A stretch of 64,000 nt of DNA from contig NMRA01000242.1 in assembly GCA_002633005.1 (NCBI GenBank), positions 1 through 64,000 on the forward strand, given 5' to 3'. This stretch comes from Phoronis australis (Eukaryota > Animalia > Phoronida). The notes under the pieces are model-generated. The model ran no database searches and had not been told where the DNA came from. It saw nothing but the letters and a program-made list of their open reading frames with translations. This document shows positions 17,807 to 63,090 of the stretch, piece by piece (the stretch's first letter is position 1; every line of letters starts with the position of its first letter). A program made the position numbers and the translations under genes.

Positions 17807-18233
17807 TTAAAAGGGCCGTTTGTGTTCTAGCTGCCTAATTGTTCGCCAAATGAAGGCCGTGAACAACTTGCACTTAAGTGACCTGTAGAGGCGGTAATGC
17901 CCCTGGTCATTGAGGTGTACCTGGTCTCGGTTCATAAGCTTCCTGTTGCCGTTGAAGCGCCGGTGGATCCAGAATTTCACGGTGGGATCGGTTTCCAGAG
18001 ACTGTCCGAGGAGGTGGTTCAGGTCATCGGCCTTGTCGTTGTACCCGTCCAAGTGATACCTGTATAGTACAGACGACACGATGACAACCCGCACACCGTA
18101 GTCCTCTTTCAGACGGGAAACCAACCGAACAAGACGCCTGCGAACGTGGGGCGGTTCGTCCGTGGACAAATCATTCCCACCGACATGCAGAATGACGACG
18201 TCTGGCCGAAAACTGGATACCATATGGAGTTGC
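17807..18233 (-). CDS. SGNH hydrolase copy A (5' part lost in assembly gap)
   Basis: Essentially identical to 20593-21019; runs into N-gap 18234-18416. Confidence 0.7.
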
Positions 18234-18416
18234 NNNNNNNNNNNNNNNNNNNNNNNNNNNNNNNNNNNNNNNNNNNNNNNNNNNNNNNNNNNNNNNNNNN
18301 NNNNNNNNNNNNNNNNNNNNNNNNNNNNNNNNNNNNNNNNNNNNNNNNNNNNNNNNNNNNNNNNNNNNNNNNNNNNNNNNNNNNNNNNNNNNNNNNNNNN
18401 NNNNNNNNNNNNNNNN

Positions 18417-20115
18417 AATTTCGTTAAAAATCGGGATTCCTATAACGCGCAAGCTTGCGCAGTATAGGAATCTGACTCTGACAGGCATTTTAAAGAATAT
18501 TTGAGGGTAAATTCTGTAAAAATCGGGGATTCCTATAACGTGCAAGCTTGCGCAGTATAGGAATCTGACTCTGATAGGCATTTTAAAGAATATTTGAAGG
18601 AAATTTCGTTAAAAATCGGGATTCCTATAACGCGCAAGCTTGCGCAGTACAGGAATCTGACTCTGACAGGCATTTTAAAGAATATTTGAGGGAAAATTTG
18701 TTAAAAATCGGGGATTCCCATAACGCGCAAGCTTGCGCAGTATAGGAATCTGACTCTGATAGGCATTTTAAAGAATATTTGAAGGAAATTTCCATAAAAA
18801 TCGGGATTCCTATAACGCGCAAGCTTGCGCAGTATAGGAATCTGACTCTGATAGCCATTTTAAAGAATATTTGAAGGAAATTTCGTTAAAAATCGGGATT
18901 CCTATAACGCGCAAGCTTGCGCAGTATAGGAATCTGACTCTGATAGTCATTTTAAAGAATATTTGAAGGAAATTTCGTTAAAAATCGGGATTCCTATAAC
19001 GCGCAAGCTTGCGCAGTATAGGAATCTGAGCCTAATAGGCGTATTAAAGATTATTTGAGGACAAATTCGTTCAAAATTCGGGATTCCTATATTGCGCAAG
19101 CCTGCGCGTTATGGGAATCTGAGACTGATAGGAATTTTAAAGAATATTTGAGGGAAAACTCGTAAAAAATTGGGATTCCTATATTGCGCAAGCTTGCGCG
19201 TTATGGGAATCTGAGACTGATAGGAATTTTAAAGATTATTTGATGGTAAATTCGTTAAAAATCGGGGATTCCTATATTGCGCAAGCTTGCGCGTTATGGG
19301 AATCTGACTCTGACAGGCATTTTAAAGAATATTTGAGGGAAAATTTGTTAAAAACCGAGGATTCCCATAACGCGCAAGCTTGCGCAGTATAGGAATCTGA
19401 CTCTGATAGACATTTTAAAGAATATTTGAGGGTAAATTCGTTAAAAATCGGCGATTCCTATAACGCGCAAGTTTGCGCAGTATAGGAATCTGACTCTGAT
19501 AGGCATTTTAAAGAATATTTGAAGGAAATTTCGTTAAAAATCGGGATTCCTATAACGCGCAAGCTTGCGCAGTATAGGAATCTGACTCTGACAGGCATTT
19601 TAAAGAATATTTGATCGAAAATTTGTTAAAAATCGGGGATTCCCATAACGCGCAAGCTTGCGCAGTATAGGAATCTGACTCTGATAGGCATTTTAAAGAA
19701 TATTTGAAGGAAATTTCGTTAAAAACCGAGGATTCCCATAACGCGCAAGCTTGCGCAGTATAGGAATCTGACTCTGATAGACATTTTAAAGAATATTTGA
19801 GGGTAAATTCGTTAAAAATCGGCGATTCCTATAACGCGCAAGCTTGCGCAGTATAGGAATCTGACTCTGATAGGCATTTTAAAGAATATTTGAAGGAAAT
19901 TTCGTTAAAAATCGGGATTCCTATAACGCGCAAGCTTGCGCAGTATAGGAATCTGACTCTGACAGGCATTTTAAAGAATATTTGATCGAAAATTTGTTAA
20001 AAATCGGGGATTCCCATAACGCGCAAGCTTGCGCAGTATAGGAATCTGACTCTGATAGTCATTTTAAAGAATATTTGACGGGAAAATCGGGATTCCAATC
20101 ACGCGCAAGCTTGCA
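18417..20115. repeat. Same 92-93 bp palindrome-bearing tandem array (array 2, ~18 units)
   Basis: Same unit; followed by the same ~480-bp spacer and SGNH ORF as array 1. Confidence 0.95.
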
Positions 20116-20592
20116 TTATTTTAAGAGAAACAGCCGTTCAAAATTCCAATCACTGTTAAGGCTGAGCCATATAAGAGTATTATGCAGAATGATCATAGCG
20201 TGCTAATTAAGAATGTGTACTTATACAAGTGGTTCAACGAAAACCGAAATTATTATATTGCGCAATGTTTTTTATTTTGCTAATAGCGAATCAATCCGGA
20301 ACGTACAAGTGAATGCAACGCACAAATTCAATCAAGCCGCTGCGCATATTGCCGAAATTCAAATTTTGAATAAGTAGTGTAATTGGTTTTTGATTTCACG
20401 AATCTGTTGTACGAAAATCAATGCCATTTCGCCCTATTTAGGAAAGTATGGTTTTGACTGCAACTAAAACGCATTTGGCGCTGTGGGGTCAAATTACGAG
20501 GAATGCGTTGACGATTTGCGTAACAAGTGCTAATTTTATGAAGATAAAGACACGAACAAGTGAACAGCTCTCCTGGGAATGAGTGGTGGCCC

Positions 20593-21186
20593 TTAAAAGG
20601 GCCGTTTGTGTTCTAGCTGCCTAATTGTTCGCCAAATGAAGGCCGTGAACAACTTGCACTTAAGTGACCTGTAGAGGCGGTAATGCCCCTGGTCATTGAG
20701 GTGTACCTGGTCTCGGTTCATAAGCTTCCTGTTGCCGTTGAAGCGCCGGTGGATCCAGAATTTCACGGTGGGATCGGTTTCCAGAGACTGTCCGAGGAGG
20801 TGGTTCAGGTCATCGGCCTTGTCGTTGTACCCGTCCAAGTGATACCTGTATAGTACAGACGACACGATGACAACCCGCACACCGTAGTCCTCTTTCAGAC
20901 GGGAAACCAACCGAACAAGACGCCTGCGAACGTGGGGCGGTTCGTCCGTGGACAAATCATTCCCACCGACATGCAGAATGACGACGTCTGGCCGAAAACT
21001 GGATACCATATGGAGTTGCTTGTAAATTGACCTGGTGGTCATTCCGCCAACACCATGAAGCTTGACAACAGGATCCAACGCAGTCAAATCGAAGTTGAAG
21101 TTCGTCGACGGCTCTCGCAACATATAGTCGCGGAGTCGACGTACGTGGCTGCTCCCGAGGATCAGAATTCGCTTCGACATAGTCAT
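20593..21186 (-). CDS. Intronless SGNH/GDSL-like hydrolase (esterase), probably mobile-element encoded
   Basis: All four SGNH blocks are present: ILGSSH (I), GVGG (II), HVGGND (III), DQVH (V). GC-rich relative to flanks. Likely start MTMSKR at 21186/21180 (two CCAAT boxes at ~21251 and ~21288) rather than the track start at 21342. Confidence 0.85.
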   Translation of the reverse strand: MTMSKRILILGSSHVRRLRDYMLREPSTNFNFDLTALDPVVKLHGVGGMTTRSIYKQLHMVSSFRPDVVILHVGGNDLSTDEPPHVRRRLVRLVSRLKEDYGVRVVIVSSVLYRYHLDGYNDKADDLNHLLGQSLETDPTVKFWIHRRFNGNRKLMNRDQVHLNDQGHYRLYRSLKCKLFTAFIWRTIRQLEHKRPF

Positions 21187-21807
21187 CTGTTCGATCCACC
21201 GCTCACTCTCACATTTTATTGTACTGCGGCAGAAACAGTCCACAGAATTGCCAATCAGAATTGCCAGACACCGAGTGTCAGAAACTGACCAATGAGAATA
21301 AATGTTTTGGATAAATTTGATATTCAGGTTTGTTGTTGACATTCCTTTGAGGAGTAGGCCCTAACTGCCAAACTAAGAGAGTAGCGGTCCTCTATAATCA
21401 CAGTTAATACCTCGGTCATTGTGTGCTGTAAACCTACCTCTTGCTGTGTAGTTAATAAAAGAGTGGACTTAAGGAGCCGGTAACAATGCTTTGATGTTGG
21501 TCAAAGTTTTACCTGTTAACTTGTTTGCTGTGTAATCTGCCTAAATCATATAGACAACTCTTTGCGCGGAAAATCAGTCCTTAACTGACATTCAACAAGG
21601 GCAAATTACTGACGCCGTACGCGACGGTATTTTTGAATACAAATTAACAACGAAAATCCTCATACAATTCCCTGCTCGCTTGGCATTATGAACGACACAA
21701 ACGTCTTTTACCCCCTGTAGGTGCCTAAATAAGTTTTGGATAAATGAGGCATACTACAATTTGTATTCCTATAAATAACGTATATATAGTATAATCAGCG
21801 TTCAGTN

Positions 21808-22244
21808 GTGGATCCAGAATTTCACGGTGGGATCGGTTTCCAGAGACTGTCCGAGGAGGTGGTTCAGGTCATCGGCCTTGTCGTTGTACCCGTCCAAGTG
21901 ATACCTGTATACATGTAGTACAGACGACACGATGACAACCCGCACACCGTAGTCCTCTTTCAGACGGGAAACCAACCGAACAAGACGCCTGCGAACGTGG
22001 GGCGGTTCGTCCGTGGACAAATCATTCCCACCGACATGCAGAATGACGACGTTTGGCCGAAAACTGGATACCATATGGAGTTGCTTGTAAATTGAGCTGG
22101 TGGTCATTCCGCCAACACCATGAAGCTTGACAACAGGGTCCAACGCAGTCAAATCGAAGTTGAAGTTCGTCGACGGCTCTCGCAACATATAGTCGCGGAG
22201 TCGACGTAGTGGCTGCTCCCGAGGATCAGAATTCGCTTCGACAT
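21808..22244 (-). pseudogene. SGNH hydrolase copy C, frameshifted and 3'-truncated
   Basis: Copy of 20748-21180 with a 1-bp deletion just after GSSH (cgtagtgg vs cgtacgtgg), a 6-bp insertion and a 7-bp deletion of the first ATG; part of the ~1.04-kb duplication 21808-22844 of 20748-21797. Confidence 0.7.
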
Positions 22245-23756
22245 AGTTCGATCCACCGCTCACTCTCACATGTTATTGTACTGCGGCAGAAACAGTCCAC
22301 AGCCGGAATTGCCAGACACCGAGTGTCAGAAACTGACCAATGAGAATAAATGTTTTGGATAAATTTGATATTCAGGTTTGTTGTTGACATTCCTTTGAGG
22401 AGTAGGCCATAACTGCCAAACTAAGAGAGTAGCGGTCCTCTATAATCACAGTTAATCCCTCGGTCATTGTGTGCTGTAAACCTACCTCTTGCTGTGTAGT
22501 TAATAAAAGAGCGGACTTAAGGAGCCGGTAACAATGCTTTGATGTTGGTCAAAGTTTTACCTGTTTACTTGCTGTGTAATCTGCCTAAATCATATAGACA
22601 ACTCTTTGCGCGGAAAATCAGTCCTTAACTAACATTCAACAAGGGCAAATTACTGACGCCGTACGCGACGGTATTTTTGAATACAAATTAACAACGAAAA
22701 TTCTCATACAATTCCCTGCTCGCTTGGCATTATGAACGACACAAACGTCTTTTATGATCCCCTGTAGATGCCTAAATAAGTTTTGGATAAATGAGGCATA
22801 CTACAATTTGTATTCCTATAAATAACGTATATATAGTATAATCAAGCTTGCAAACGGGGATAAAATAATCGACAGCGCGCCTTAATTTTAATAAAATCAA
22901 ATCATGGACAACTTTATCGAATTTGCTGAAGAAATGTGGCGAATAAATTTTGACAGAAATTATTTTGCTAGACCCGGGACCGGAGCGTATCGGACCGCGT
23001 GCCGATTGAGACCAGACACTGGCGAACGGTAAGTGCATGCGGTTGCGAGCTGTTTTGTCGAAGTAAAATGCTCAAATCATAAATGCCGCATATATTCAAA
23101 GATAGTTTCAGACACTTGCATGAAATTACGGGCTGGTTAGTCCTGTGTCACACTGCAGCGGCAGACGTTAGCTACATGTAGCCTCACTGCCAGCTACCAC
23201 TGAGGACTATCGTCAAAATACCGCTTGTTAGTACATGTAGGCCTGTACAGCTTTGCGTCAAGGCTACCCTTAGGACTAACTGGTCGCTGGCCACAGCGCT
23301 CGCTCAAACGAGGTTTATTTAGAACTTGGGTACTTCTCGCGAACTGTGCAAAGTTGTTGGCTTTCAATAGAGATTTGCTCAGACTTTGTATGAGCGCACC
23401 AAGCCTAAAAGAATGGGGGGGCTGGAATTTTTGGGAATGTCTACCTTTTACTATAAGATTCACTGGGTATGTTCAGAGCTATGAATTGCAGACGCTAAAT
23501 TTTGGTACTTCCTGTATTCTAGAGGAATATTGTCTTGTTTTTTACTTTTTTCGGAATTCGTGCTTCTCTGACTGAGGCAGACCTTTTTCCATTTCTCCAA
23601 ATAGTAGGCTCGTTCGAGCACATAAGTATGACAAGTCCAATACAAAATGTTATCATTTTTATTCATTAACCCAAAATGATTCAAACTTTTAACATAATAA
23701 GTAAATTAAAATATACAATACTTTACAACATTTAGCATTACAAACACTATTCAACA

Positions 23757-29939: not shown

Positions 29940-30750
29940 AAGATTACCCTCGAATACAGAACGCCTGAGTGTATATGAATGGGTAAATCTTAAAGAGGTG
30001 TGGAAACTTAGACGATCAGCGATTTTAGTTTGTTCGGCCGGTGGTAGTTGAAGGTCCTGGATTCGTGTTACAGTGGGGACAGGGATCTTCTCACACTAAT
30101 AGTCCTTCTCGATGGTTCCCTGCGTGTCCGCTAGGGGCCGGGGTAGAGGACACGCAGGTATCATTCAGCAGTAACCTCGGCAGTAATAGGCCAGCTTTGC
30201 AACAAAGAAAGAAAGTAGCGGACTGTGAACGATTTTAGCCATAACACATCTTTGTGAACCAAGTTTTCTCTCTACTGCAAATATGTTTCAGCAGTAGGGT
30301 AATGTTTAATAGCCATGTGGACGATTTACATGTAGGATGTGTTATTCATACTAGTTGAATACAGGGCAGCAACGTAAACAAACGTCAGCGCCAGTAGAAA
30401 AATGCACACTGAAAAGGCACAACCACAACTTTACAACAGACCACAAACTACATCCACATTTACACTTCATCAGTCGTGCCAGTTTGTTTAGTAAAGCCCT
30501 CCCTGTTAACAATTCGACCAGCCAATTAGAAACGCCAGTGTAAAAAAATTCCAGGGGGAAAGTTAAATGATACCTGCTGTTTTCTACAACATAGGAACAC
30601 CAGGGAACCAGAGAGACTTTTATTAGGTCCAGTGATGTGGCCAATAGGTGGCGGGCTGACTAGACTTAAAAGTTTGTGATCCATACCGACTACACACCAT
30701 TTTAGGATTTGACATAGGCACTTCAGATAAGAATTAACTGACAGAAGAGT

Positions 30751-30893
30751 TTATATGCTAGTTTCTCTCACAGGAGTCACCTCTTGCACATCAAACTGGA
30801 TTTCAGGAATTTTCTCAAGCTCTTCACTTGTTTTGTTCTGTCCAACTTCTTTCATGAACACTTTTCCATTCTGGTCACATGCCATGAAGTAAC
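30751..30893 (-). CDS. IL-1-like gene last exon (GYFMAC...EIQFDVQEVTPVRETSI*)
   Basis: ctttaacttctcag acceptor, TAA at 30753-30751, AATAAA on minus strand at 30624-30619. Confidence 0.83.
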
Positions 30894-33800
30894 CTGAGAA
30901 GTTAAAGTGAAATTCTGTCCAAATTAATGTATTGTCAACTACTAATGAAATCCATCACATAATGCATCATAGCCAGGAAGATAAGATTTTATAAACTCTG
31001 AAGAGTATCCCATCTGTTCAGTAAGTTGTTAACCGACAGGGTCAGCTGATGTCTCACAACAAAAGTACCAGGTCCTCTGGAATTCAACTTTTCCTTAAGA
31101 AATTAGGACTTTATTTCCTTAAATATCAAGAGCACCTACTAACAGGTAAATAGTGACATTTGGGAGGTTTAGTTTCAGGGTGCCAAGGGTCTCAAAACAT
31201 ACACACCTCGAGTCAGTATGAATAATTCTACCACTATCTATTTTATTTATATTGTAAACCCAAATACAGCAATAAGCAGAAAAAGCTCTGAGTCAGCCCG
31301 GCCGATCATACTCAAATTCCGAGTGCCCCTTGATCTCAACCTCAGGACCTGATTTGATTTGACTTTTGTCATGAAACCGCTGCTGGATTATTTTATGAGC
31401 ACCCTCAAAAGAATTGAGGCCGGGGTCACAGACAGGTTTTTTTGTGCTCATTGACTTATCAGCTGATAAGATGCAAGTTTGTTTGCTTCTGCTTCTTAGT
31501 AAATTTTTGTTTCTACATTTGTAGAACCAATTGCAACCATTGTAATTCTGTGAGTTAGTGCGCACCTTACATAAACCATGGCCTTCTGTATATTTGTTAT
31601 ATTTCTTTTATTGCACGGGTACCAGATAGTCTTAATAAGTAGTAAAATTCTTTATATGTGAAGTCCAAGAAGGCAGACGATCACCATGTATAATCACGAG
31701 TCAAAATTTCAAAGACAAGTATATAGTCACGGCTTAATACCGACATACCAGCGAGGCTCGTGGTCTACAAATTCCACGCACAGTGATTTTTTCAGGACAG
31801 TCGGATCTTGCTGATAAATTGAAGACATTACTGTAGAATTTTAGAACTGTTGGTAAGGCATTTTTCACATGTACACGCCGTTCATGGACAGGGCGCTTAT
31901 TTTAGCAAAGTCTAAAAACGCGTGGGGGGCGCTTATAGGAGCATGGGCGTTTATTAGGACGAATATGGTAAATATTGTTATATGTATTCTGTTATACAGA
32001 CTTTGTTAAATGCACGACACTTTTCATTGTTCACAGTCTTTATTCCGTTGCGTTCATACTTTCGGGAAAGACTGCAGTCTTTCCCGTCGGTTATCCATGC
32101 ATCTTCAAAATGGCGCCATTCAAGATCATTTTCTGCAATACCACGCACGTAAAATCACCCGTCAAGAAATTGTGGAAAACACGTCAATTCGCTACGTGGA
32201 GCAAGATATGCTGCGTTTGAAAGTATTAGAGTCCCTTTTAATTGCTTTTGAGAAGCCTGTTTTGAATGAGCAGCAAACAGGGTCGCGCCACACGTTACAC
32301 TTGTTTGCGTGACTTTCCTGCTACCCCAATTCATTAGTCATTCTTTGCAGTATTTCACACCCGCCATGTCTCACTGTGTGTGTCGTCAGCTTATACTCTG
32401 TGGTGGCATTACTGCATCATTTTATCTTCACTTGAGAATGAAACAAGTATGTTTCGAAATATCGTGTGTCTTTTAACTATGTCGCTAGGTCAGTTACTGT
32501 ATCTATGTTCAGTTGAGAGTAGAGTTTTGTTCCGAAAGTATGAACGCAACGGAATAAAGACTGTGAACAATGAAAAGTGTCGTGCATTTAACTAAGTCTG
32601 TATAACAGAAAACTTGCTCCCGAAGTACAGTCAGTTCAAGTTATATGTATTCTGTAAAAGTGTATACAACAGAAAGCAAATAACAATGTAAAACCATTTG
32701 CACTTACATTAACGTACTCTCTCCCTAAGTTTAGTAGAACAGGGGCATTCGTAACTGCTCGTGGAACTATTTCCATGACAACGATAGCACGCTCATGATC
32801 CACTATTTCATATCACATTTTTACACCACTTTCTGTTTTTAACCACTAGACTTGAGCCAGAGCAGATTCGCATGTAGGTAAATCTGATGGGAAAGTCATT
32901 CATCGACATATGATTATGAAATGTGTAAAAATCACAAAGATATATCTATTGCCACAGGTCGTGGATCAAGGGGGTTGTGGGTCTTGGGTCGTGGGTGCTG
33001 TGGGTCGAGGGTCAAGGGGTTGTGGGGTGCGGGGACCGGGTTGAGGGGGTTTAGAACAACGCAACATGATAATTGCAACAAATAAAACAAAATACCTTTG
33101 TGTGCAAAAGACTCGAAGAACACCACATTGCTAAACTTGCTGATCCTGAACAGCATGGGTTTCTGTTTTTTGAGATTATTAAGGTTGATGCCACTAGATA
33201 CCTGAAAATGAAGACATGCTTATTAATTAATTTAGTGATACAACGTTCACTAGGGGTGCTTTAAGTAGACCTAGTTTCTCGCAATAAAAGCAAGATTACG
33301 CAAGACCTTGCAATATCATCTAAATGAAAGTTGAGTGTTTCACAAGAATGCTTGTAACCTAGCAAAATGGCAGCCACTGAAGTGATTGGTTGGATGCTGG
33401 AGAGTTGCATTATGGGATAGAATTGATGAATTACGGGATAGAACTCACTGTTTCTGTTCCATAAACAAACATTTCTCACCTGAACATAGCTAATGTCTTG
33501 GGTCAGCACAAAACAGTCCTGGCATTTACAATTATACTACTTGTATTACCACAAAGACATGTCAAGAAAACCACAAACTTAACTACCTCATTGCACATAA
33601 TATCTGCTAACAGCAGATGTGGGTGCTGAGGGTCATTTGAGTTGAGACTAAGTTCCCTCTGTATGTGCCCCTAAATGAGCGTGAGTAAATATTACAAATC
33701 TCTTTCAGGTCACATGTTCCTTGCATCATGTGACCAACATATAGTGTGTAAGACATAAAATAATTCCTAACCTATCAAAATCTTTCCTTCTCAAAATCCA

Positions 33801-36800
33801 ACTCCTCCCCATCCTTATCGTAATTTCTACCCCTTCTTCATCTCATAACGCCTCCCCTTCCCATCCCATACCTATTCCTCTTCCCATTTCACAACTCCTA
33901 CCATTCTCAGTGTCATAACTCCTTCCCATCCCATACCTATTCCTCTTCCCATTTTACAACTTCTGCCATTACCAGTGTCATAACTCCTCCCCTTCCACAT
34001 CTCATAAGCCCCTCCCCTTCTACGCAGTCCATTCTCATGCCACACTTTTTCATTCCCCTCTGCCTCCTCTCATTATACCTTTTCTTTGCTATCTCTTGCC
34101 ATATCTTCTCATCCTCTTTGTTCCACTCCCTCCCTCATTCCCTCCCTCATTCCCTCCCCCATTCCCTCCCTCATTCCCTCCCTCTCTCATTTCCTATTTA
34201 TAACTATTCAGCTTCTTGTATACTTACAAGTAAACGAACTTCCTTTTTATTGGCATAAAGATACAAGTTGTTGGATTTAAATGCAGCAACAGAATTTAGG
34301 AATGCTGGGCGGCTGTCTATCGTGTCCCACCCACGGTAGTTATGTTGATAAAAAACAACTGCAATCAAAAGATAAAAGCATGAACTATATAGTTACAATA
34401 ATGTACATAGGTGATAATGCCAACCCCAAGAATTAACCTAAATACTCACTTTAATGAAATTGTTAGCAAAAAATATTGTTGAGCAGCAGCACAGGAGTAA
34501 TTGGATCTGACAGACACACGTTCAAGTAAAAATTATGCATCGCATAACGAGAACAAAAAGCTAAAAGATCAATCCAGTTGACTGCACCACAAAGTCCTCT
34601 AGTTAAGTCCCAATACCATCAATGAGTGATTTGTGCTTCAAGTAACCAGTTTATGCTCTCTCCCTCACCGTTTTCACTAATAGTATTTTTGCACATATTT
34701 ACAATGTACATCTTGTGTAACACGTTTCTCACGTCAACCTGCATTTTTCTCAAGCACCATTCTTTTTTTCCTATGAACAATTGTGTCTCTTTTACAACTG
34801 TAACCTAGCTCATAATTTGAATCTGACAGATAGTGAATTTGGAAATAACTTACAGTGATCATCGCCATTGCCCATGGGGCAGGCCTGTACTGAGGAGGTT
34901 TCGTGGCACCACTTAAAAGCTTTGCCATTTGAGAATATGCGTACTTCTGGACAATCATCAAAAACCAAGTCCTCTATTTCATCTGACTTGTCTGCCGACA
35001 CAGTGTCTGTTTCAACCCTGATATATATTTGGTCAGACTCAGAATCTGAAAAAGCAAGATGCAGCCAGAGATTAAGTTTCGTTTATTAATCCAAGACAAT
35101 TTTCTTCAGATATTGACAAGAGAAAGCATGAGATGTTACAAAACAAGCCACACAACTGTTCATCTGTCAAGCACAGCAGGCAATGTACAAAATGTGGCAC
35201 GCAGGTGTACATCTTTGTCAAGCACAGCAGGCAGTGTGCAAAATGTGGCCCGCACATGTACATCTCTGTCAAGCACAAAAGACAGCGTAAAAAAATTGAC
35301 ACAAAGGTGAACATCTCCGTCAGGTACAGTAGAAACTATACAAAATACGGCAAACAGATGTACATCTCTGTCAAGTACAACAGAGAGTGTAGTTTGCCAT
35401 GACCAAAGTAAAAAAAATACTTTTCAACTAATTTCTTACCATAAGATAACTCCTTAATGGTAATCTTGACTACACTGTTGGTCTTTTTTACAGTCTGAAA
35501 ACAGGATAGTATATCAGCAATTATATTTATGGAGCTCTGGTTTCAAACATTGTTTTATTGATAGCAAGCTATTTCAAGAATTTGTACTTCACTAAGTTCA
35601 TAACTGAGTCATGTGACGAAAAAGAATTTAGCATTGAAAAAGGATGGTACATTCATAGCAAAACAACAATATCAGTAACATAGACAAAAAATTTGATATC
35701 AATGTTAAAGATGAAATCTCAAAAACACTGTAGTTACAGTTTTATAAAATATAATTTTATTTTTGTCTTATGCAACTTTTGAGTTTTTTCATAAAAATTC
35801 TGAGTCATGAAGGTCCAATTTTTAAACCCGTTCACGTTAAAGTATAACACCTAAAAAACAATAGAGAAAAGTGCATAAAGTATTAAGTTGAAAACACAAC
35901 TAAACTCTTTGTTTGAAAGCTTAATACCAAGTCGCTCATAGTGTCGAAACAATTACCTTTCTTCAGGTGTGCAGCTATGTTGCTTTCAAACAAAAAGTTT
36001 AGTTGTGTTTTTGACAAAGTTTGTGTTAACAAAGGGCTGGTACCTAACTACAATAAAAATCCTTTGAGAAAGTTTCATTTGAATCCATTTCTGAGATATG
36101 ACATTCTGAAATTAGCCAAAATTGTAAATTTTCTAGGATTCCATACATTGTTAAAGCCTTAGTTGAATAGAATTTTGTTATTTTAGATGTATTTGGCTAA
36201 CCATGCAGTCCTAGCAAAGCCTTGGTAAAATAAGAAAATGCGAGTTTAATCACGCAAATGTCAGCCTGTCAAATGATAGATGAAGCTGCCTTTACATGCC
36301 ATATTGCGTCACCACTAGATCCCAGCACAAACAAGGATGATATCAGTTGTATTGAATGTTTTTAAAGTTAAAAGTGGTCTGCTGGATTACCTTTTTTGAT
36401 TTCCTAGATCTTCAGAGACATCTCGTCTGCTTCGATGGAGGTTGATTGTGATGAGTTGCACGAACTCTGGTCGAGAGAGTATGGAGGCAGTTTCGAGGTC
36501 CTACATGACCAGAGTTCCCGCAACTCATCGCAGTCAACATCCCATCAAAGGAGATGAGAAGTCTCCGAAGATCTCGAAAACCAAAATAGGTAATCCAGCA
36601 GACCAGTTTTAACTTTAATATCATGAACATTCCTGGATGGCTCAAGATCTACATTTTATTAGTTGTATTGAATAGGAGCCTGAATAGAACACCAATGGTG
36701 TGCAGGTTTATTTGCAGCTATTTCTATTAAAAGGTGACAGAGACAAAAGCAAACTGATATGCCTAACAATTCATAATATTTGACCATATAAGGCACTAGT

Positions 36801-39800
36801 GGGCTCAGAACAATGCTCTTAACATAATTTAGGAACTGCATTTACAAGTGTCACCATTCAAGATACATGTAACTATCAATTTTGGATATTTGCAAAATGT
36901 AATGTCTATATTTTGTATAAAATTATATCTAAGTCAATATTTCTCATGGCTGCTCATAACACTTCACCAAACAATTATTCACACACCAAATCTGTGAATT
37001 GTTTGATACTTCAGTTAATTTCAAATTTTGTGGCACCAACTTTATTAGCCATTTTCAAGCTTGTTCACTTTCAATGTTTTAAACTGTTACGGTACTGAAC
37101 ATCTATTTCCTTTTATTGCATTGACTGGTTCAAAGGGAACTTTGCACACTTATTGTATGGTCTATGGTTATGGAAACCAAGTCTCAATGGAGATATCGGC
37201 AAATAAACTAGAGACTAAATGACAATGAAAACAAGAGAAATGCGCAGTGTTGATATGCATCCGTTGTGGACCAAAAATGCCATGTTCCTAGAGTGCTTAT
37301 CAGGTCATGAAAGGTAAAATGAGAATAAAATTTGACTCAGGTTCTGTAAAGGATTGTAGCAATGCGTGCTGGGTTCTATGCATCCTGAGTTCTATGTATC
37401 CTGGGTTCTTTGAGTTCACAGTTCTATGTGTCCCAGATTTTATGTGTCCCGTTTTATGGATTTCGGGTTCTATGTGTCCAGAGTTTCATGTGTCCCAGGT
37501 TCTATGTGTCCCGGATTCTATGTGTTATGGTCTTTTGTATTATAGTCCAGGCGCTAAGCGAACAAGTGTGCAAATTTTAGCTACAATCACCATTTTAGGT
37601 CCACACGACAACTTTGAGGTACTTTTTCGATCCTGGTATAGGGCAAAAAATTGACCTCATTAACCCTGAGCTGCATGCATAATTAAGTCAAAACTTGGCT
37701 TAACAGCATAAATTAAATGCATGCATATCTCTGAAACCACTTGACAAAATCTCAGGATATTTGGGTCGATTCTTATGTTCACCATTCAAGGCCAAGATCA
37801 CGTAAAAATTTCCTAAAAGACTGCTATCCTTAACCAAAAAATGTACATAACATTCAAACCACAGGCAGTATGTGCAGGTTTCATAAGAAATTGTCATACT
37901 TGGTCCAAATGACCATTTTGAGTTGCCCTTTCAAACCTGATAAAAGGCAAATTAATTCGACCTCATTAACTCTAAGTTCCAAGCATAAATAGCTTATAGT
38001 TGTTGGTCATAATTAGCATAATTTACTTGTGAGCATACTATCAAACCATTTGGAGGTATCATCTATGGCTTGATTCTTACCAGTATGTTAACCCGGGTTG
38101 TCCAATTCATTGTTGACACATTTAAAGTCATTCCAGATCAAAATCAAGTGACAATTCCTCCAAAACTGCTATTTTTACCCAAAAAAGTACATAACATTCA
38201 AAAAAGGCCAGTATGTGCAGATTATATAAGAAATATCCACACTTTGCCCACGTGATATCAAAACCAACAAGAGCAACGCGGAGCGTTGAAATGCGCCCAC
38301 AATTGCACCGCATACGGTATCCTTCTAGGGTTGTTTATTGGTACCATAAAGTCGCCAGTAGAGGGCATACTTTGCAAAATGGAAAGGCATGGTCATTGTC
38401 TCCTCAATAGGCTAGGGGCAAAATGTGCGTAATCTTCATAATACAAGCACATCCTATACACCAGTTGCTTAAAGCACCACAGAAACATAGAATTAAAAAC
38501 AAATTTACCAACATACGAGATTAGCACAGCATTAGAATGCCAGAAACAAATTTCTACTTGGAACTTTTCCTTCACAGTCACGAAGTAACACAAAGTATAC
38601 ACCTGAAGACCTATGAAAATACAGAGGTCAATGTAAAATACTAAAATTGCCACTAGAGGCAAATACTAAAATTGCCACTAGAGGCATACCGGTAGTCAGA
38701 ATCATCCTAAAGTCGTCATCGTCCGTTGTCAACATCACATAAATACACTTGCTAAATTTAGTAAAGATCCTGCAAACGGTTTGGGAGATACAGCCATGGG
38801 CGCAAAAAAACAAAACTGCCACTAGGAGGCGCCACAGTAGTCCAAATCGTCTGAAAATCATTGTCAGCTGTCTTCCTTATAGTAAGCACATACACGCCAA
38901 TTTTCACAATCATCCTTTGAGCGGTTTGGTTGATAGAGGGGTGGACGCAAAAATACAGACTCGAAAACAGTAAAAATGGCCACTAGGTGGCGCAAACTAC
39001 GTCGAATCCATCTGAAAACAGTAGGATAGCGTCATCTCACTAATAGGTGCCTACATACCAAATTTCATGAAAATCCGTTCAATACTTTTGAAGATACAAA
39101 GGTAAGCGTAAAAAACTAAAATTGCCACTAGGGGGCACACCGGTAGTCGGATCCGTCCGAAAGTTCGCACATGCCGTCCCATTCATGAATGGAACATATG
39201 CGCCAAATTTCATGAACGTATGTCAAAGGGTTTTGGAGATAGAGCAGCGGACGCCGGACGCCGGACGCCGCCCGGACGGACGGACGGACAGAGATGACGG
39301 CATAATGCGTCCACATATAAATATGTGGGCGCATAAAAAGGGCAAAAAGTTCGAACAGAACCCCGATGTCCATAAAACTGAACACATAGACCACAGGACA
39401 CATAGACAACAGGAAACATAGACCACAGGACACATAGACCACAGGACACATAGACCACAGGACACATAGACCACAGGACACATAGACCACAGGACACATA
39501 GTCCACAGGAAACATAGACCACAGGAAAAATAGACCACAGGACACAGACCACACGAAACACAGACCACAGGACACATAGACCACAGGAAACATAGACCAC
39601 GGGACACATAGACCACAGGACACTTAACCACAGGAGACATAGACCACAGGAGACATAGACCACAGGACACATAGACCACAGGGCAAATAGACCTCAGGAC
39701 ACATAGACCACAGGACACATAAAACCTGGGACACATTAGACTGACCCAGTTCTGAACTAGTCTCAGTATTCTCACAAAAGTGATGACGCTTCAACATTTA

Positions 39801-41934
39801 ACTAATGTCAAATCAAAAAGTATAAAATGAAAGTCACATGATTATAAAGGACAATGTACAAGCTTAGGGTTGAAAAATAACAGTCATGACGCTATTGGAT
39901 GATTTGATAAATGACTTTGGGAAGATTGATAATTTCATTACGCTATTAAGCCACTTTCCATTAAAAATATGGCCTTAGATCACTTAGAACTATCTTGAAA
40001 CTGGTCTCAACCTGCTCCTGCCTCAAACTGAAGGTGACTTCTGGCGTTTAGAAAGAACTGACCATACATTCAAAATTATCATCAGTTTCAACACTGTAGA
40101 AAACACCCTTCTCTCCCTACAGTGAACACTTAACACATTCACGAAAATGGTGATAATGTGAACAGTACTAAATTTGTTTTATCATGACAAGTCATTGTGT
40201 ATGGGCTGAGCATGAAGTCCTCAACAAGCAACACCAGATGGCAGCAGAAGGTCAATGGCAGACAACAATGATAAGAAAGTGTTCAGTTTTGCTTTCAGTT
40301 TTGCTTTCAGTTGTAAGTAAATTTTTTTGGGTACTTACTTTCATTCAAAATATGAAAAGTTTCCTTCAACCATCAGATTCCAGTTGTGATAACTTTGTTA
40401 ATTTCATCATAACAAATTGAATCCTTGGCTAAGCCCAGTTACCACGTGACAGACAACAATATATCAGTTATATTGATCAACAAAGTAGGAAAACAATAGC
40501 AGGTAACAATAACAGCCTAAAAAAGGTACATGCTGCAGGTATCAGGTGCCCAGCTAGAATTCCACCTATACCACAACCACACTGTCAAATGAGTCCAAGC
40601 ACTATATTTTATCTGCTGCAATAGCTGAACTTACAATACTTGAATCTTCCTCACCCGCAACCAGATGGCGCAGCATATCGATAACTAGGTCATGTTCCAA
40701 CATGGTTACACTGAGATCCCCAATGTTCAACAAGGTGTACTGATTACTAAAAAATAAAAATTTAACAAAAATAAATTAAATCCTAGTACTGTATGCAAAA
40801 AAGTTTACATGACAACCAATATTACTCGCTACACAAAAAGCAATAAAGTCTACATGACAACCAACCTGACTCGCCACAATTATTCTAATTTCATCTACTG
40901 AGAGTCAGACTGTCTCTTCAGTAAGAGATAACACACTTTCATTTTAGTAACTCCTTTTGAACACAAAGTCGTCATTAAGATAAAAATTGCATGCAGAGGT
41001 TTATGTTTTCCATTGCAGATGAAACGTGAAGAAATAATCATTGTGTTACATTAGTTCAATATGACAATGTTATGACACCAATCATGCGTGCACCCGGCCT
41101 AAAATGTAGGGGGACTCGAATTTTCGACATGCGGACCTTTTACTGAAAGAAATCAACGAGGACTAAAACAAAAACAAAAAAACATGGCCACTAGGTTCAG
41201 GCCTGCGAATTGTGCATCCTCGCCGACTTCCCGTGGATTTTGTGGACTTTTGTCTCGTTTACTCGGACTTTTTATTTCACTGAGGCAAACCTTTTTGCCC
41301 AATTCACCAAATTAGCGTGAGCCCCCCGAGCCCCCCCCCCCCCTGGGTGCGCCCATGCCAATGCAGAAATACCGTAATCCCAGTTCCTTAACCAGTTCAT
41401 CCTCTTCATCAAGGTTAGTAAACTCATGGCTGCCATGTGAACCACCAGTTTTTAACCAAATTTTAGTGACATGGTCTTTAAGAAGTCGCACTTGACTCGG
41501 CTGGGAATGCTGTAAAACAACCATCACATATTCATCATTTGTGGCAAATCAACCACTGACCAATTACAGATCACAAAAATTTCAAATTTTGCTAAAACAA
41601 CTATGCTAAGTTTGACTGTGGCCATTTGAGTTTACAGGTACTTTAATTTTTTAAAAATTTGAGAAGCCAGGTTCAACATGTTTTTTATTTTTACCACACC
41701 TCTAAAAACTAACAATAGATATATATATATAAATCAAACTAAACTATGATGAAAAACAGACAGAAACCGTGTTTACGTGCACGTCAACTTCATGTCTCAA
41801 TCCATGATCTGTAACTCTCCAACTGAAGTTAAGAATCAACTTACATCATTCATCTTGCATGCTTTCTGTTCTACACCATCTTTATCTCCCTCAACATGCC
41901 TCTTATGTCCTGATGGTGAATTCATTGTCAACAT
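30751..41934 (-). CDS. PDZ-like + IL-1/IL-18-family beta-trefoil cytokine-like protein (8 coding exons, 321 aa)
   Basis: Exons 41934-41845, 41509-41373, 40746-40635, 35494-35440, 35045-34854, 34358-34228, 33201-33096, 30893-30751. All introns are GT-AG, phases 0,2,0,1,1,0,1, and join into a 966-nt ORF ending TAA. Protein: MLTMNSPSGHKRHVEGDKDGVEQKACKMNDHSQPSQVRLLKDHVTKIWLKTGGSHGSHEFTNLDEEDELVKELGLRNQYTLLNIGDLSVTMLEHDLVIDMLRHLVAGEEDSSITVKKTNSVVKITIKELSYDSESDQIYIRVETDTVSADKSDEIEDLVFDDCPEVRIFSNGKAFKWCHETSSVQACPMGNGDDHFVFYQHNYRGWDTIDSRPAFLNSVAAFKSNNLYLYANKKEVRLLVSSGINLNNLKKQKPMLFRISKFSNVVFFESFAHKGYFMACDQNGKVFMKEVGQNKTSEELEKIPEIQFDVQEVTPVRETSI. FESFAHKGYFMAC resembles IL-18 FESSSYEGYFLAC; KSNNLYL resembles IL-1b KEKNLYL. 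Alternative start ATG at 41925. Confidence 0.82.
31987..32610 (+). mobile_element. Penelope-like retroelement 3' fragment with inverted terminal arm (last intron of IL-1-like gene)
   Basis: GIY-YIG C-terminus LSRRLSMHLQNGAIQDH...LKVLESLLIAFEKPVLNEQ* (~32073-32312); 79-bp inverted arms 31987-32065 and 32532-32610; hammerhead-like cttgagaatga...tcgaaa at 32430-32460. Confidence 0.75.
33096..33201 (-). CDS. IL-1-like gene coding exon 7 (VSSGINL...MLFRISKFSNVVFFESFAHK)
   Basis: cttcattttcag acceptor, donor GTATTT, phase 0/1; carries the F-E-S IL-1 family motif. Confidence 0.83.
33820..34190. repeat. Pyrimidine-rich low-complexity region with ~65-bp direct repeat and (TCCCTCCCTCAT)n
   Basis: Direct reading. 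Confidence 0.8.
34228..34358 (-). CDS. IL-1-like gene coding exon 6 (FVFYQHNY...NNLYLYANKKEVRLL), 131 nt
   Basis: ttttgattgcag acceptor, donor GTAAGT, phase 1 in / 0 out. Confidence 0.83.
34854..35045 (-). CDS. IL-1-like gene coding exon 5 (acidic linker + first trefoil strands)
   Basis: ctttttcag acceptor, donor GTAAGT, phase 1/1, 192 nt open. Confidence 0.82.
35150..35390. repeat. ~54-bp tandem repeat x4-5 (intronic)
   Basis: gtacatctctgtcaagcacag... recurs at ~54-bp spacing. Confidence 0.8.
35440..35494 (-). CDS. IL-1-like gene coding exon 4 (TVKKTNSVVKITIKELSY)
   Basis: cctgttttcag acceptor, donor GTAAGA, phase 0 in / 1 out. Confidence 0.72.
36366..36614. mobile_element. Palindromic MITE with TTAA TSD (Kolobok/piggyBac-type target)
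   Basis: ttaa|agttaaaagtggtctgctggattacc ... ggtaatccagcagaccagttttaact|ttaa, plus an internal hairpin. Confidence 0.75.
37370..37530. repeat. Diverged 18-bp repeat in inverted orientation to 39385-39735
   Basis: (ggttctatgtgtccc)-like units. Confidence 0.7.
38266..39338 (-). mobile_element. Non-autonomous Helentron-associated (HINE/DINE-1-like) element, full length
   Basis: 5' subTIR ATGCGCCCACA within a hairpin (39334-39305) followed by a (GTCC)n-like microsatellite. Internal ~150-160 bp diverged repeats. 3' subTIR (38291-38301) followed by stem-loop CAACGC-gga-GCGTTG (38274-38288) and a T-rich end. Confidence 0.8.
39385..39735. repeat. 18-bp minisatellite (CATAGACCACAGGACACA)n, ~19 copies
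   Basis: Direct reading; explains the repetitive ORFs 39128-39775. Confidence 0.95.
40635..40746 (-). CDS. IL-1-like gene coding exon 3, PDZ-like core (NQYTLLNIGDLSVTMLEHDLVIDMLR...)
   Basis: tttttag acceptor, donor GTAAGT. Pattern GLR-x3-LL-x-IG-x2-V-x3-H-x2-V-x2-LR resembles PDZ betaD-betaE-alphaB. Confidence 0.8.
41083..41357. mobile_element. Same MITE family, copy 4 (intron of IL-1-like gene)
   Basis: catgcgtgcaccc...gggtgcgcccatg flanked by ccaat/ccaat. Confidence 0.8.
41373..41509 (-). CDS. IL-1-like gene coding exon 2 (HSQPSQ...KELGL)
   Basis: ttttacag acceptor, open frame, donor GTATTT, phase 2. Confidence 0.78.
41845..41934 (-). CDS. IL-1-like gene coding exon 1 (MLTMNSPS...KMND)
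   Basis: Acceptor ttgaag upstream of 41944, two in-frame ATGs (41934, 41925), donor GTAAGT, phase 0. Confidence 0.7.
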
Positions 41935-51700: not shown

Positions 51701-54700
51701 TAGTGAGATTATTTGTCAATACTCATCTGTGCGCAACTGTAGCTTGAATGGTAATATGTCTGGCAATCACATAACACTGTTATCATTCATCCGGGTGAGA
51801 AGTACTTGATGTGGACATTATAAATCAGATCTTTCTGTCCAGTTGATGGTTTGGGCTAGATGAGTGAGTGTAAACCTAGATTCTGTCTTTGAATATTCGT
51901 GATAGTGTCAGATTTATGTTGTTTGACTCATAGTCCAGGGCCCTGCAGTTTTTGTCCAGTAGGAAAACTGGCACAGGATGAAACAGTTTTCGCTATTCAT
52001 CAATTCCAGTAGGAAAAGCCAAGCACTGAACTCCGTAACATCGGCAGGAATATTACTGTAAATTTCCAGGAGTGTTTTGTTTGGTGAATAGTGCACCAAA
52101 TTTCAAGCACTCTATCAGTAAATATTTGTGATTTCCCACAAGCTAGATGTGCCACTAACTAGATGTATTAGTGTTGCTGCTGTTGTTGTTTCTGTTGTTG
52201 CTAAAGGTCGCCACAATCGTGCTTCGCCATTTTACCATAAGGTAGGCACAAAATAAATATTTTCCTGACAGTCAAGTTGTGCCAACTAAACTGAATAATT
52301 ATACAAACTTCGTAGTTGACGGGTCTGCGAAATGAAATGAATAACCAAGCATCGCCTGCCAGCTTTTCCCTATTACTGACTGTACCCATGACAACCAATT
52401 AGTGGGTGTATGGGACAACAGCTACTGGAATTGTATTTTGTAACTTATCTTTTGCCAGGCCATTGTATATGACCGGGAAGGTAGAGCGCGTGTTGAAGAA
52501 GGGCCTCAGAGGGTAAGTACATATTTGCTTAATAGTGTGTTACCATTGTAGCGACGAACAATTAACATCTATGGTAAGAGCTCTCTTTTTGTTTATGTGT
52601 ACATGAATTTACAGTTAATTCAACTTAATACAATATCGTGCAATACAATGCTATAGAATAATAGTTAACAACAAATATGGTGCAATTTACATTTAGATTA
52701 CCACACTTTAGAATAAATAAAAGCAGTCCAGTACAATAGTATAATATAACACAATTTACAATAAATACAAGATCTCATATTATAAAATATAGAATGTTAT
52801 ACAGTAAATACAATACAATACAATACAATACAATACTATAGGAAAGCACAGGTTGCAGTAATCACAGTAATCAATCGAATAACATAGTTTATAATAAATG
52901 CTATGTACCACTAATATATCGTATACCGTATATGCAACATAATACAATACAATACTGTAGATGCAACATAATACAATACAATACTGTTGATTACCATAGT
53001 TCACACTAAATGCATACTATGCTATAGATTATTTAACAGCAATAGAAACATTGGATGTGGTCTTTAGATAAGTACAATATTCTGTACAGCTAGTGTTCAC
53101 TTATTTGCTCCCAAAATGCCAAAACTGTTGTTTTTCACATTTTCAAAGGCTGGTTGCATTGCTGCAAATAATGTAAACACTGCCAAACTTAAGTCTTATC
53201 CACACTAGGTGTCACCCTAAAACAAGTTACTCCTGGAACAAGTTTTCACTAGGTTTAGTAGTATTGTGGAAGCTATTTGTGCTTGGGCATCTTTACACTT
53301 GTGACCTAGTTGCCTCACCTTATTGACGTTGGGTAACTTACCCCACGTCCTCGTGCTTAGTTCACATACATATGGGTGTGCAATCCTGTTTGCGTCATAT
53401 TTGTCACAAGGTATAGGTTGGATGCTTGGCTGGCTGGGCACAAGATATTCTTAATCTTTGTTTTCGTTGAGAAAAGTATTAATTAAGTAAAGCTTCTCCT
53501 TTGAGCCATATTGTCAGTTACCACAATGCCATCATTATCGTTTGTAGATATTCCTGTGGCAAGAGAAGTTTGTGTGTCTAAAGCGATACACTGCTAATCA
53601 GAATCAGTACCTTGCAATACGATACAGGGATGGACGTTCTAAGCATATGCCTGGGTAAGTGGACTATGTGGTTATTAGTTTTGTTAATTAGTTGTCCCTG
53701 TTGATCCGTTGTGCTTTAACTCCTATATTGTGCAACTGTACAGGGGCTTGTTATTGAGAATGTTGATCATTCAGTTTTTACCTGCATGAGAAAGACACTA
53801 CCAGGAAGGGAACTTTCTGTATGTTGGGAGAGTTTTTAAATGTGATTTAAGAATGGACTCGTTTTGTTTTAGTACACATTTGAAGTCTTGGCCTATACAA
53901 TGAGACTAATTTGGTCCTTGAAAATCGCAAACAAATAGCAAAGAGGCATTTTGAATATAACCTGGTTTGCCTGGCCTGGCTTACAGAAGATAGCCCCAGG
54001 CATAAACTTTGTGAACTTTAACCTCATGAATTAATGTTCTCTGATTGGTTATATCGTTATCATGCCCCTCTGGAATTTATCAACTACTTCGCACATGTGT
54101 GACAGAAAAGTGACGTTTTATCAGTAAACAGGTTTCAGGTATTTTTATACCACAGATGTTGTGCCTCAATAATGTTCTCTTTTACCCAAACAAGCAGATT
54201 TTGGAAACTAGGTAATTTATATAGCTCAATACCCATTTATATGAAACTGGGTATAATTTAAAGTATACCAACAGATGTGAGGTCTGTTATTGACTGTTGG
54301 ATGATGGTGAACATGTGGGTATGATGTCACTGGTCCAGCCACTTTTTTGCAGAGTTCACGTGGTGTGTCCTTTGCTTAAGTGTAGCTCTATTTATTAATT
54401 CGCAGGCATTGTGTTGATCTCATTTACAGTTATTGTTTTTATCTATATTTTAAATATATGTAATGAAAATAATTTCAGGTGTTTGATACGATTGGCCTAA
54501 CTGAGCGGCCTGGGCACATCTGATGCAAGGTGTATCAGACCACCTATGCTGCACTTTTTTGCTATCTCGTTTTAAGAATAATATTCGAGTTTGGTATTCA
54601 ACGTTGATATCAAATAAATGTAGACATGTGTTTGTAGACCATGTGCCATGCACCAAGTGCCAACCCAACATCACAGTATTGATGTAAAGAATGCCATATC

Positions 54701-62638: not shown

Positions 62639-63090
62639 TGTCTCATGCGTTTCTGTGATATTTGAATTTTGTCTAAATTCTAAAAATGTGTGAATCTTGA
62701 AGGTGATGAATGTGATTAATATGCAGTTTATGCCTGAAGATTTTATTGCTTTTTACATTCTAACAGTATTTATTTTGAGGCCTTGAGTATTTTATACACT
62801 GTTAAATGATGATTGTTTATGAATACATTGAGAGTCCGGTGCGACACACTTGTCTATTTCATTGTTATATGATTGACAGATTTTTGAAAATTTCTAAAAT
62901 GAAAATGTTGCAAGCTTTTACTGCAGCAGTATGTGCATATTGTGTGTTCCTAATCATTTAGCACTACGAAAGTTACGGTAGTAAAATAATTTTAATGTTG
63001 GAATAACTGTAGGAGGCTCTGGAATTATTTTCAAAAATAGTTTAATTTTTATGCAATTTTACTTTGACATGGACTTACCAATGTTTTAAT

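What the first reader, a model, noticed from the sequence alone, without database searches (positions are those of the whole stretch)
30751..30768. C-terminal class I PDZ-binding motif (ETSI-COOH) on a protein with its own PDZ-like domain
Seen: the protein ends R-E-T-S-I*, on a short tail beyond the last predicted trefoil strand. Established: E-[S/T]-x-[V/I/L]-COOH is the canonical class I PDZ ligand, and class I PDZs have His at the start of alphaB; here the motif is LEHDLVIDMLR. Inference: the tail could latch into the N-terminal PDZ, in cis (auto-inhibited pro-cytokine released by linker cleavage) or in trans (head-to-tail oligomers), or tether the cytokine to scaffolds. Caveat: no clear GLGF loop is visible, so the PDZ may not bind peptides.
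Basis: partly seen in the sequence, partly recalled or inferred. Interest (0 to 1): 0.7.

Follow-up and report, generated by a model that had tools for sequence, protein, structure and literature searches.

The report
Ancient IL-1 with PDZ-binding tail
An expressed invertebrate gene, likely of the recently described ancestral interleukin-1 family, ends in a classic PDZ-docking tail that more likely binds other scaffold proteins than its own, apparently degenerate, PDZ domain, an untested idea that the published tagged constructs would have masked.

Summary
The motif is real. A clean 8-exon minus-strand gene (321 aa, all GT-AG) ends RETSI-stop; RNA reads confirm five of seven junctions and cover the stop. 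By eye it is an IL-1anc cytokine (N-terminal PDZ, IL-1 trefoil with FES, no signal peptide), a family published in 2025-26; no fold or profile hit could confirm this.

The self-latch idea is poorly supported. The protein's PDZ has Lys where the carboxylate loop's invariant Gly should be. Among published members a class I tail goes with the alphaB His in 1 of 18 and without it in 5 of 28, and one tail sits on a PDZ-less paralogue.

The tail is not family-wide: 7 of 52 readable invertebrate ends, 0 of 28 vertebrate, 0 of 5 lophotrochozoan; no close orthologue was found. Class I ends are mildly enriched, 12 of 52 end in Val, and the published constructs carry a C-terminal FLAG that would hide such a motif.

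Best reading: docking on other PDZ scaffolds (0.45); incidental (0.40); own PDZ (0.15). A new member of a known family, with a cheap untested question attached.

The parts
30751..30768 (-). Last five codons plus stop, R-E-T-S-I*: class I PDZ-binding motif (the finding)
   Evidence: read depth over the stop
30751..30893 (-). Exon 8 (aa 275-321): likely trefoil strands 10-12 (last strand about 30798-30781), then a 9-residue tail (30780-30754)
   Evidence: joint 30891/33094 in all 4 runs; strand assignment by eye
33096..33201 (-). Exon 7 (aa 240-274) with the FES motif (33117-33109), the IL-1 beta9 signature
   Evidence: joints
34228..34358 (-). Exon 6 (131 nt, phase 1 to 0): likely strands 4-7; holds most of the allelic amino-acid differences
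34854..35045 (-). Exon 5: acidic linker with candidate caspase sites (VETD at 35016-35005) and likely strands 1-3
   Evidence: cleavage is inference
35440..35494 (-). Exon 4: likely last PDZ strand
   Evidence: joint 35045/35440 and loose end at 35494
40635..40746 (-). Exon 3: PDZ betaD-betaE-alphaB with His94 (40694-40692)
   Evidence: its 3' end seen in reads as a loose end
41373..41509 (-). Exon 2: PDZ betaA to alphaA; V-T-K-I (41470-41459) in place of the G-Phi-G-Phi loop
   Evidence: register by eye against Table S2 rows; not read-verified
41845..41934 (-). Coding part of exon 1: hydrophilic 30-aa leader, no signal peptide
   Evidence: start codon inferred, not read-verified
30619..30624 (-). 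AATAAA polyadenylation signal; same-sense reads continue to at least 30200, so the 3' UTR may be longer

Best explanation
The gene is expressed and spliced, likely encodes an ancestral-type IL-1 (IL-1anc) pro-cytokine, and its ETSI tail most likely docks on PDZ domains of other cytosolic proteins rather than on its own PDZ, which is predicted to be a poor peptide binder. Shown: gene model, splicing of exons 3-8, the terminal motif, FES, no hydrophobic leader. Inferred: family and fold (by eye); that the last 9 residues hang free beyond strand 12; that Lys46 in place of the loop Gly disables the carboxylate cradle; that the leaderless pro-form is held or routed in the cytosol by a host class I PDZ scaffold (a GRASP-, Dlg- or syntenin-type protein is the guess) until a protease cuts the acidic linker and the trefoil is released. 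The N-terminal PDZ would then act as a pro-domain, not a latch. Family membership about 0.9; the trans-docking role about 0.45.
For: The E-form of the motif is rare by chance (4 of 2146 ORF ends). Class I ends recur in 7 of 52 readable invertebrate IL-1anc ends: QSDV, YSKV, ETNV, QSGV, MTKV in Table S2 and SSRV, KSDV from cloning primers. That is p 0.003-0.07 for backgrounds of 3.8-7%, or 4 of 24 lineage blocks, p 0.012-0.083. 12 of 52 end in Val (p 0.0002 at 7%). One class I tail is on a PDZ-less paralogue (SpurIL-1.3) and 5 are on members without the alphaB His, which fits a partner in trans. The loop Gly is described as fully conserved in peptide-binding PDZs (PMC2891790 passage) and is Lys here. 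GRASP55/65 bind C-terminal tails through PDZ1, and their depletion reduces IL-1beta secretion (PMC6660245 passages). Published localisation, secretion and cleavage tests used a C-terminal FLAG, so they do not bear on the tail.
Against: 45 of 52 invertebrate, 28 of 28 vertebrate and 5 of 5 readable lophotrochozoan ends lack the motif. 24 of 104 table rows remain unreadable at the end (29 cut, 5 recovered from primers; a sixth primer gives a lamprey end without the motif, read by eye, not counted). The enrichment fades at a 10% background (p 0.26; 0.21 by blocks), and over all 80 readable ends it is weak (p 0.03-0.33). Terminal Val is not significantly commoner than in the vertebrate rows (12 of 52 vs 3 of 28, p 0.24). 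Two of the seven tails (the anemones) end at about the end of strand 12 and may not be free. Paralogue pairs differ in having the tail (PminIL-1.4 vs 1.5). No close orthologue, no binding data and no partner were found. All table counts are by eye. GRASP's role in IL-1beta release is described as unclear and possibly indirect.
Confidence: 0.45

Rival explanations
1. Incidental tail: ETSI is the lineage-specific end of a fast-evolving, unconstrained extension after strand 12 and has no selected PDZ partner.
For: 3.8% of random ORF ends fit class I. Most family members lack it, including 5 of 5 readable lophotrochozoan ends, and the neighbour gene's best named hit is an annelid. Tail length and sequence vary freely in Table S2. 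The gene tolerates many amino-acid changes (12 non-synonymous vs 5 synonymous codons between alleles, pN/pS about 0.6).
Against: The E-T-x-I form is about 20 times rarer than plain class I. Similar ends recur in anemones, an acorn worm, sea stars and a sea urchin. No tail variant is listed in an allele differing at 18 other coding sites (weak, P about 0.6 by chance).
Confidence: 0.4
2. Self-latch: the tail folds back into the protein's own PDZ, or into a neighbour's to form head-to-tail oligomers, keeping the pro-cytokine closed until the linker is cut.
For: His94 and Ile98 sit at alphaB1 and alphaB5, as in class I PDZs (role of alphaB1 His). A basic residue (Lys41) precedes the loop. Trefoil N- and C-termini lie side by side (recalled), so a roughly 35-residue linker and 9-residue tail make the geometry possible. 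Precedents exist: NHERF-1, X11alpha, tamalin, Dishevelled (abstract in listing). Saccoglossus IL-1.1 has an intact L-G-M loop, the His and an ETNV tail.
Against: The loop reads V-T-K-I, with no Gly and a polar residue at the first hydrophobic position. His-bearing members have a class I tail in 1 of 18 cases against 5 of 28 without His, so the His is a general family remnant. A tail persists on a PDZ-less paralogue. Neither the paper nor the preprint text mentions such an interaction.
Confidence: 0.15

Closest known systems
IL-1anc / nIL-1F family (Fontenla-Iglesias et al., PMC13736523; lumpfish nIL-1F, PMC7144542)
   Same: N-terminal PDZ-like domain, acidic linker with Asp sites, C-terminal trefoil with FES, no signal peptide, under 500 aa. 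The PDZ core resembles Pecten IL-1.2 and Saccoglossus IL-1.1 by eye.
   Different: This protein is not among the 104 Table S2 rows. Its loop Gly is replaced (also lost in several bivalve and sea-star rows). A class I tail is a minority feature of the family and is not discussed in the paper's main text.
Saccoglossus kowalevskii SkowIL-1.1 (Table S2)
   Same: Free tail beyond strand 12 ending E-T-x-V/I (ETNV); His at alphaB1.
   Different: Keeps an intact Phi-G-Phi loop, so it is the better test case for a self-latch. Orthology to the window gene is not shown.
Self-latched PDZ proteins: NHERF-1, X11alpha, tamalin, Dishevelled
   Same: [quoted passage not shown]
   Different: Those are scaffolds whose PDZs demonstrably bind peptides. 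Here the loop looks degenerate and the tail does not covary with the groove residue.
C-terminal-valine cargoes of GRASP55/65 (TGF-alpha precursor and others; reference titles in PMC6660245)
   Same: A hydrophobic C-terminal residue on a signalling-protein precursor that could engage a trafficking PDZ.
   Different: Those are transmembrane cargoes; this is a soluble leaderless protein ending in Ile; no partner is shown.

Membership tests
IL-1anc | N-terminal PDZ domain | tested here: inconclusive
   No Pfam, PDB-sequence or Atlas hit for single exons of 37-45 aa. The pattern matches Table S2 PDZs by eye.
IL-1anc | C-terminal 12-stranded IL-1 trefoil shown by structure prediction | not testable with these tools
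   The spliced protein was not folded. Twelve candidate strands were placed by eye; exon searches gave only chance hits.
IL-1anc | (F/L)ES motif in beta9 | tested here: met
   FES at aa 268-270, 33117-33109, in a read-confirmed exon.
IL-1anc | No signal peptide; shorter than 500 aa | tested here: met
   321 aa; highest 10-residue hydropathy in the first 45 aa is -0.34. Crude test; the start codon is inferred.
IL-1anc | Conserved phasing of the two central trefoil introns | tested here: inconclusive
   Introns 5 and 6 are phase 1 and 0 around a 131-nt exon. This matches human IL1B as I recall it; the paper's figure is not held and a search for the exon size found 0 papers.
IL-1anc | Microsynteny (GCC2, ESD, EIF2A, TRAF3, IL-1R) | tested here: inconclusive
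   The only neighbour gene identified is an SPFH/band-7 protein. The paper reports no microsynteny in lophotrochozoans.
Class I PDZ ligand | [S/T]-x-hydrophobic at a true C-terminus | tested here: met
   T-S-I-stop in the terminal exon, covered by reads; definition.
Class I PDZ ligand | Measured binding to a PDZ domain | not testable with these tools
   No binding data.
Canonical peptide-binding class I PDZ | Carboxylate loop R/K-xxx-G-Phi-G-Phi with invariant second Gly | tested here: not met
   K41-D-H-V44-T45-K46-I47: Lys at the Gly position, loop one residue short (by-eye register; genomic sequence only).
Canonical peptide-binding class I PDZ | His at alphaB1 | tested here: met
   His94; also in 18 of 46 other invertebrate PDZ-bearing rows with readable ends, 17 of which lack a class I tail.
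Self-latched PDZ proteins (NHERF-1, X11alpha, tamalin type) | Tail kept together with a matching groove across relatives | tested here: not met
   1 of 18 with His vs 5 of 28 without; distant relatives only.

The most novel reading that the evidence does not exclude
A C-terminal PDZ-binding tail is a recurrent, perhaps ancestral, control element of invertebrate IL-1 cytokines: it hands the leaderless pro-form to a trafficking scaffold for unconventional secretion, and in members with an intact groove (such as Saccoglossus IL-1.1) it can latch onto the protein's own PDZ. It has gone unseen because the published constructs carry a C-terminal FLAG tag.
Probability: 0.25. Interest if true: 0.7.

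Novelty: new member of a known kind. Interest (0 to 1): 0.38.

Why it matters
The IL-1anc paper leaves two questions open: what the PDZ does and how these leaderless cytokines leave the cell (a reviewer calls the PDZ underexplored). A tail motif touches both, and it can be tested by moving a tag from the C- to the N-terminus in existing sea-urchin constructs, two of which appear to end in class I motifs. If the tail is incidental, the window still adds one expressed, polymorphic IL-1anc gene from a probable lophotrochozoan.

Tried and rejected
Homologue searches with single exons found no relative. Exon 5: 0 of 10 candidates. Exon 8: 0 of 3. HMMER over 1.84 billion representatives with exon 8 gave 5 hits, all long repeat proteins (3 bacterial LRR/zinc-ribbon repeats, 2 bindins), rejected as chance. 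Atlas: nothing at 0.9 or above. Pfam on 6 exons: 1 weak hit below its cut-off. PDB sequences: chance hits only. These blanks reflect 35-63-aa queries and are no evidence against the family. No whole genome is held. No indexed RNA holder was listed; raw-read runs of the same species label were laid instead. Earlier findings: 0 in 3 look-ups. The cut ends of Table S2 rows could not be searched and the preprint's supplement could not be read. Alternative exons considered and left out of the model: 40893-40866 (no open frame to it), 36500-36390 (phase mismatch; the exon 3/4 junction is seen directly in reads). One search had three off-by-one borders, fixed; one search miscoded one variant, fixed. 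No structure or complex prediction was run, so groove shape and tail contacts are untested.

Full report
1. Observation. The window is animal DNA (GC about 38%, assembly gaps). Positions 30768-30751 on the minus strand read R-E-T-S-I-stop. Eight exons (41934-41845, 41509-41373, 40746-40635, 35494-35440, 35045-34854, 34358-34228, 33201-33096, 30893-30751) join through canonical GT-AG introns, phases 0-2-0-1-1-0-1, into a 321-aa ORF with no internal stop. Reads from three RNA runs and contigs from a fourth run with the same species label show joints at introns 4-7. A 17-read loose end at 35494 matches the end of exon 3. Sense-strand depth across the stop is 7.8-13.7. So ETSI is a true C-terminus of an expressed transcript. 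Exons 1-2 and most of exon 3 were not checked with reads. By chance, 81 of 2146 six-frame ORF ends in the window fit [ST]x[VIL] and 4 of 2146 fit E[ST]x[VIL], this one included.

2. What the gene is. A literature search for PDZ plus trefoil plus interleukin-1 returned the IL-1anc paper and its preprint. That family is defined by an N-terminal PDZ, a C-terminal IL-1 trefoil, an (F/L)ES motif in strand 9, no signal peptide and conserved intron phases. The window protein has FES at 268-270 and a hydrophilic N-terminus. Its alphaA-to-alphaB segment lines up by eye with Pecten IL-1.2 and Saccoglossus IL-1.1 in Table S2. A 131-nt phase 1/phase 0 exon matches human IL1B as I recall it (not confirmed). 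Every database search with single exons was blank or gave chance hits, as expected for short queries in a family whose authors could not find it by BLAST or HMMER. No fold was computed. I put membership at about 0.9. The neighbour gene's best named hit is an annelid at 60% identity, 1 of 2 hits, a weak pointer to a lophotrochozoan.

3. Is the tail conserved? Table S2 has 104 proteins; 29 cells are cut at 400 characters and 75 are whole. Five sea-urchin ends were recovered from the reverse cloning primers; the lamprey IL-1.1 primer reproduced its known end as a frame control. Class I ends, counted by eye: Exaiptasia QSDV, Actinia YSKV, Saccoglossus 1.1 ETNV, Acanthaster 1.3 QSGV, Patiria 1.4 MTKV, urchin 1.2 SSRV, urchin 1.3 KSDV. 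That is 7 of 52 invertebrate ends, 0 of 28 vertebrate ends (one of which looks mis-pasted) and 0 of 5 lophotrochozoan ends. Against backgrounds of 3.8, 5.3, 7 and 10% the invertebrate count gives p 0.003, 0.02, 0.07 and 0.26. Collapsed into 24 lineage blocks it is 4 of 24, p 0.012-0.21. Terminal Val occurs in 12 of 52 (p 0.0002 at 7%), but also in 3 of 28 vertebrate rows (difference p 0.24). The true proteome backgrounds were not measured. So the motif is a recurring minority feature with mild, uncertain enrichment, not a family hallmark. Within the species, run X3 carries an allele differing at 18 listed coding sites in exons 4-8 and none listed in the tail, which is uninformative (P about 0.6; 120 rows hidden).

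4. Can its own PDZ take the tail? For: His94 at alphaB1 and Ile98 at alphaB5, Lys41 before the loop, plausible geometry. Against: where relatives have L-G-M, A-G-F or M-G-M before betaB, this protein has T45-K46-I47. A review calls that Gly fully conserved and left-handed. The His is no sign of a matched pair. Among 46 PDZ-bearing invertebrate rows with readable ends, 18 have it and 1 of those has a class I tail; 5 of the 28 without it have one (Fisher p 0.38). SpurIL-1.3 keeps a class I end with no PDZ. Self-latching is known for NHERF-1, X11alpha and tamalin, but I give it 0.15 here.

5. Mechanism. The most likely working model is a cytosolic pro-cytokine. Its PDZ acts as a removable pro-domain. 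Its acidic linker carries candidate caspase sites (VETD at 142-145 among eight Asp residues; caspase cleavage is shown only for SpurIL-1.3). Its free tail engages a host class I PDZ protein that positions it or routes it for non-classical release. GRASP55/65 are the first candidates, because they bind C-terminal tails in PDZ1 and their depletion lowers IL-1beta secretion, though that link may be indirect. All of this beyond the sequence is inference (0.45). The close rival is an incidental tail (0.40).

6. Known or new. The architecture is published. The terms PDZ-binding, PDZ ligand, binding motif, intramolecular and autoinhib occur 0 times in the main text of the preprint and of the paper. 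Searches for IL-1anc and for nIL-1F with PDZ list only these two and the lumpfish paper. In the peer-review file I saw 11 of 44 PDZ passages, with no GLGF. The authors cloned all eight tested proteins with a C-terminal FLAG, which would block a terminal motif, so their localisation and secretion results do not test it. Figures, the preprint's supplement and the cut table cells could bear on this and were not seen.

7. Papers seen. PMC13736523: abstract, sections 7, 10, 12 (part 1 of 2), 47, 63 (part 1 of 2), term passages; supplement 4 parts 1-6 of 7, supplement 1 part 1 of 2, supplement 3 by term search. PMC12338702: term search only. PMC2891790, PMC6660245, PMC7144542: passages. PMC13142005: start of abstract in a listing. 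Recalled, from no call: IL1B exon size and phases, adjacency of trefoil termini, caspase preferences, the role of the beta4-beta5 loop, PSD-95 PDZ3 register.

8. Verdict. Observation confirmed; interpretation partly supported; new member of a known family. Interest 0.38: the self-latch is unlikely for this protein, but the family-level tail question is cheap to test and has been hidden by tag placement.

Noticed in passing
window 34311-34335 (exon 6) and exons 5-8: Two alleles differ at 17 codons, 12 non-synonymous and 5 synonymous; 5 amino-acid changes cluster in codons 204-212, the likely beta4-beta5 loop, which in IL-1beta contacts the co-receptor (recalled). Possible diversifying selection on a receptor-facing loop.
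   Followed up: partly
window about 53550-62640, + strand: Multi-exon gene, divergent from the IL-1 gene, for an SPFH/band-7 (PF01145) protein with vault-like wording; one exon is 60% identical to an uncharacterised Owenia fusiformis protein. No full model was built.
   Followed up: partly
window 17810-22272, - strand: Three near-identical copies of a GDSL/SGNH-hydrolase-like ORF (PF13472, E 1e-13 for 20596-21360) among tandem repeats and assembly gaps; probably a repeated element or a local mis-assembly.
   Followed up: partly
window 35016-35005: VETD in the linker resembles a caspase-8-type site (recalled); cleavage there would leave about 19 residues before the first trefoil strand.
   Followed up: no
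window about 44540-44452, - strand: Candidate non-coding first exon ending in a GT donor, preceded by ETS- and CRE-like words; not checked with reads.
   Followed up: no
window 31975-32634: Intronic repeat with RNA reads on both strands, inverted joints and very high contig depth: a dispersed, transcribed element with inverted ends.
   Followed up: no
window about 39400-39720: Tandem array of a roughly 16-18-nt TG-rich unit in intron 3, giving spurious long ORFs in all three minus frames.
   Followed up: no
PMC13736523 Table S2, row LreiIL-1.2: The listed sequence is hydrophobic and lacks IL-1 features; it looks like a four-pass membrane protein entered by mistake (by eye).
   Followed up: no
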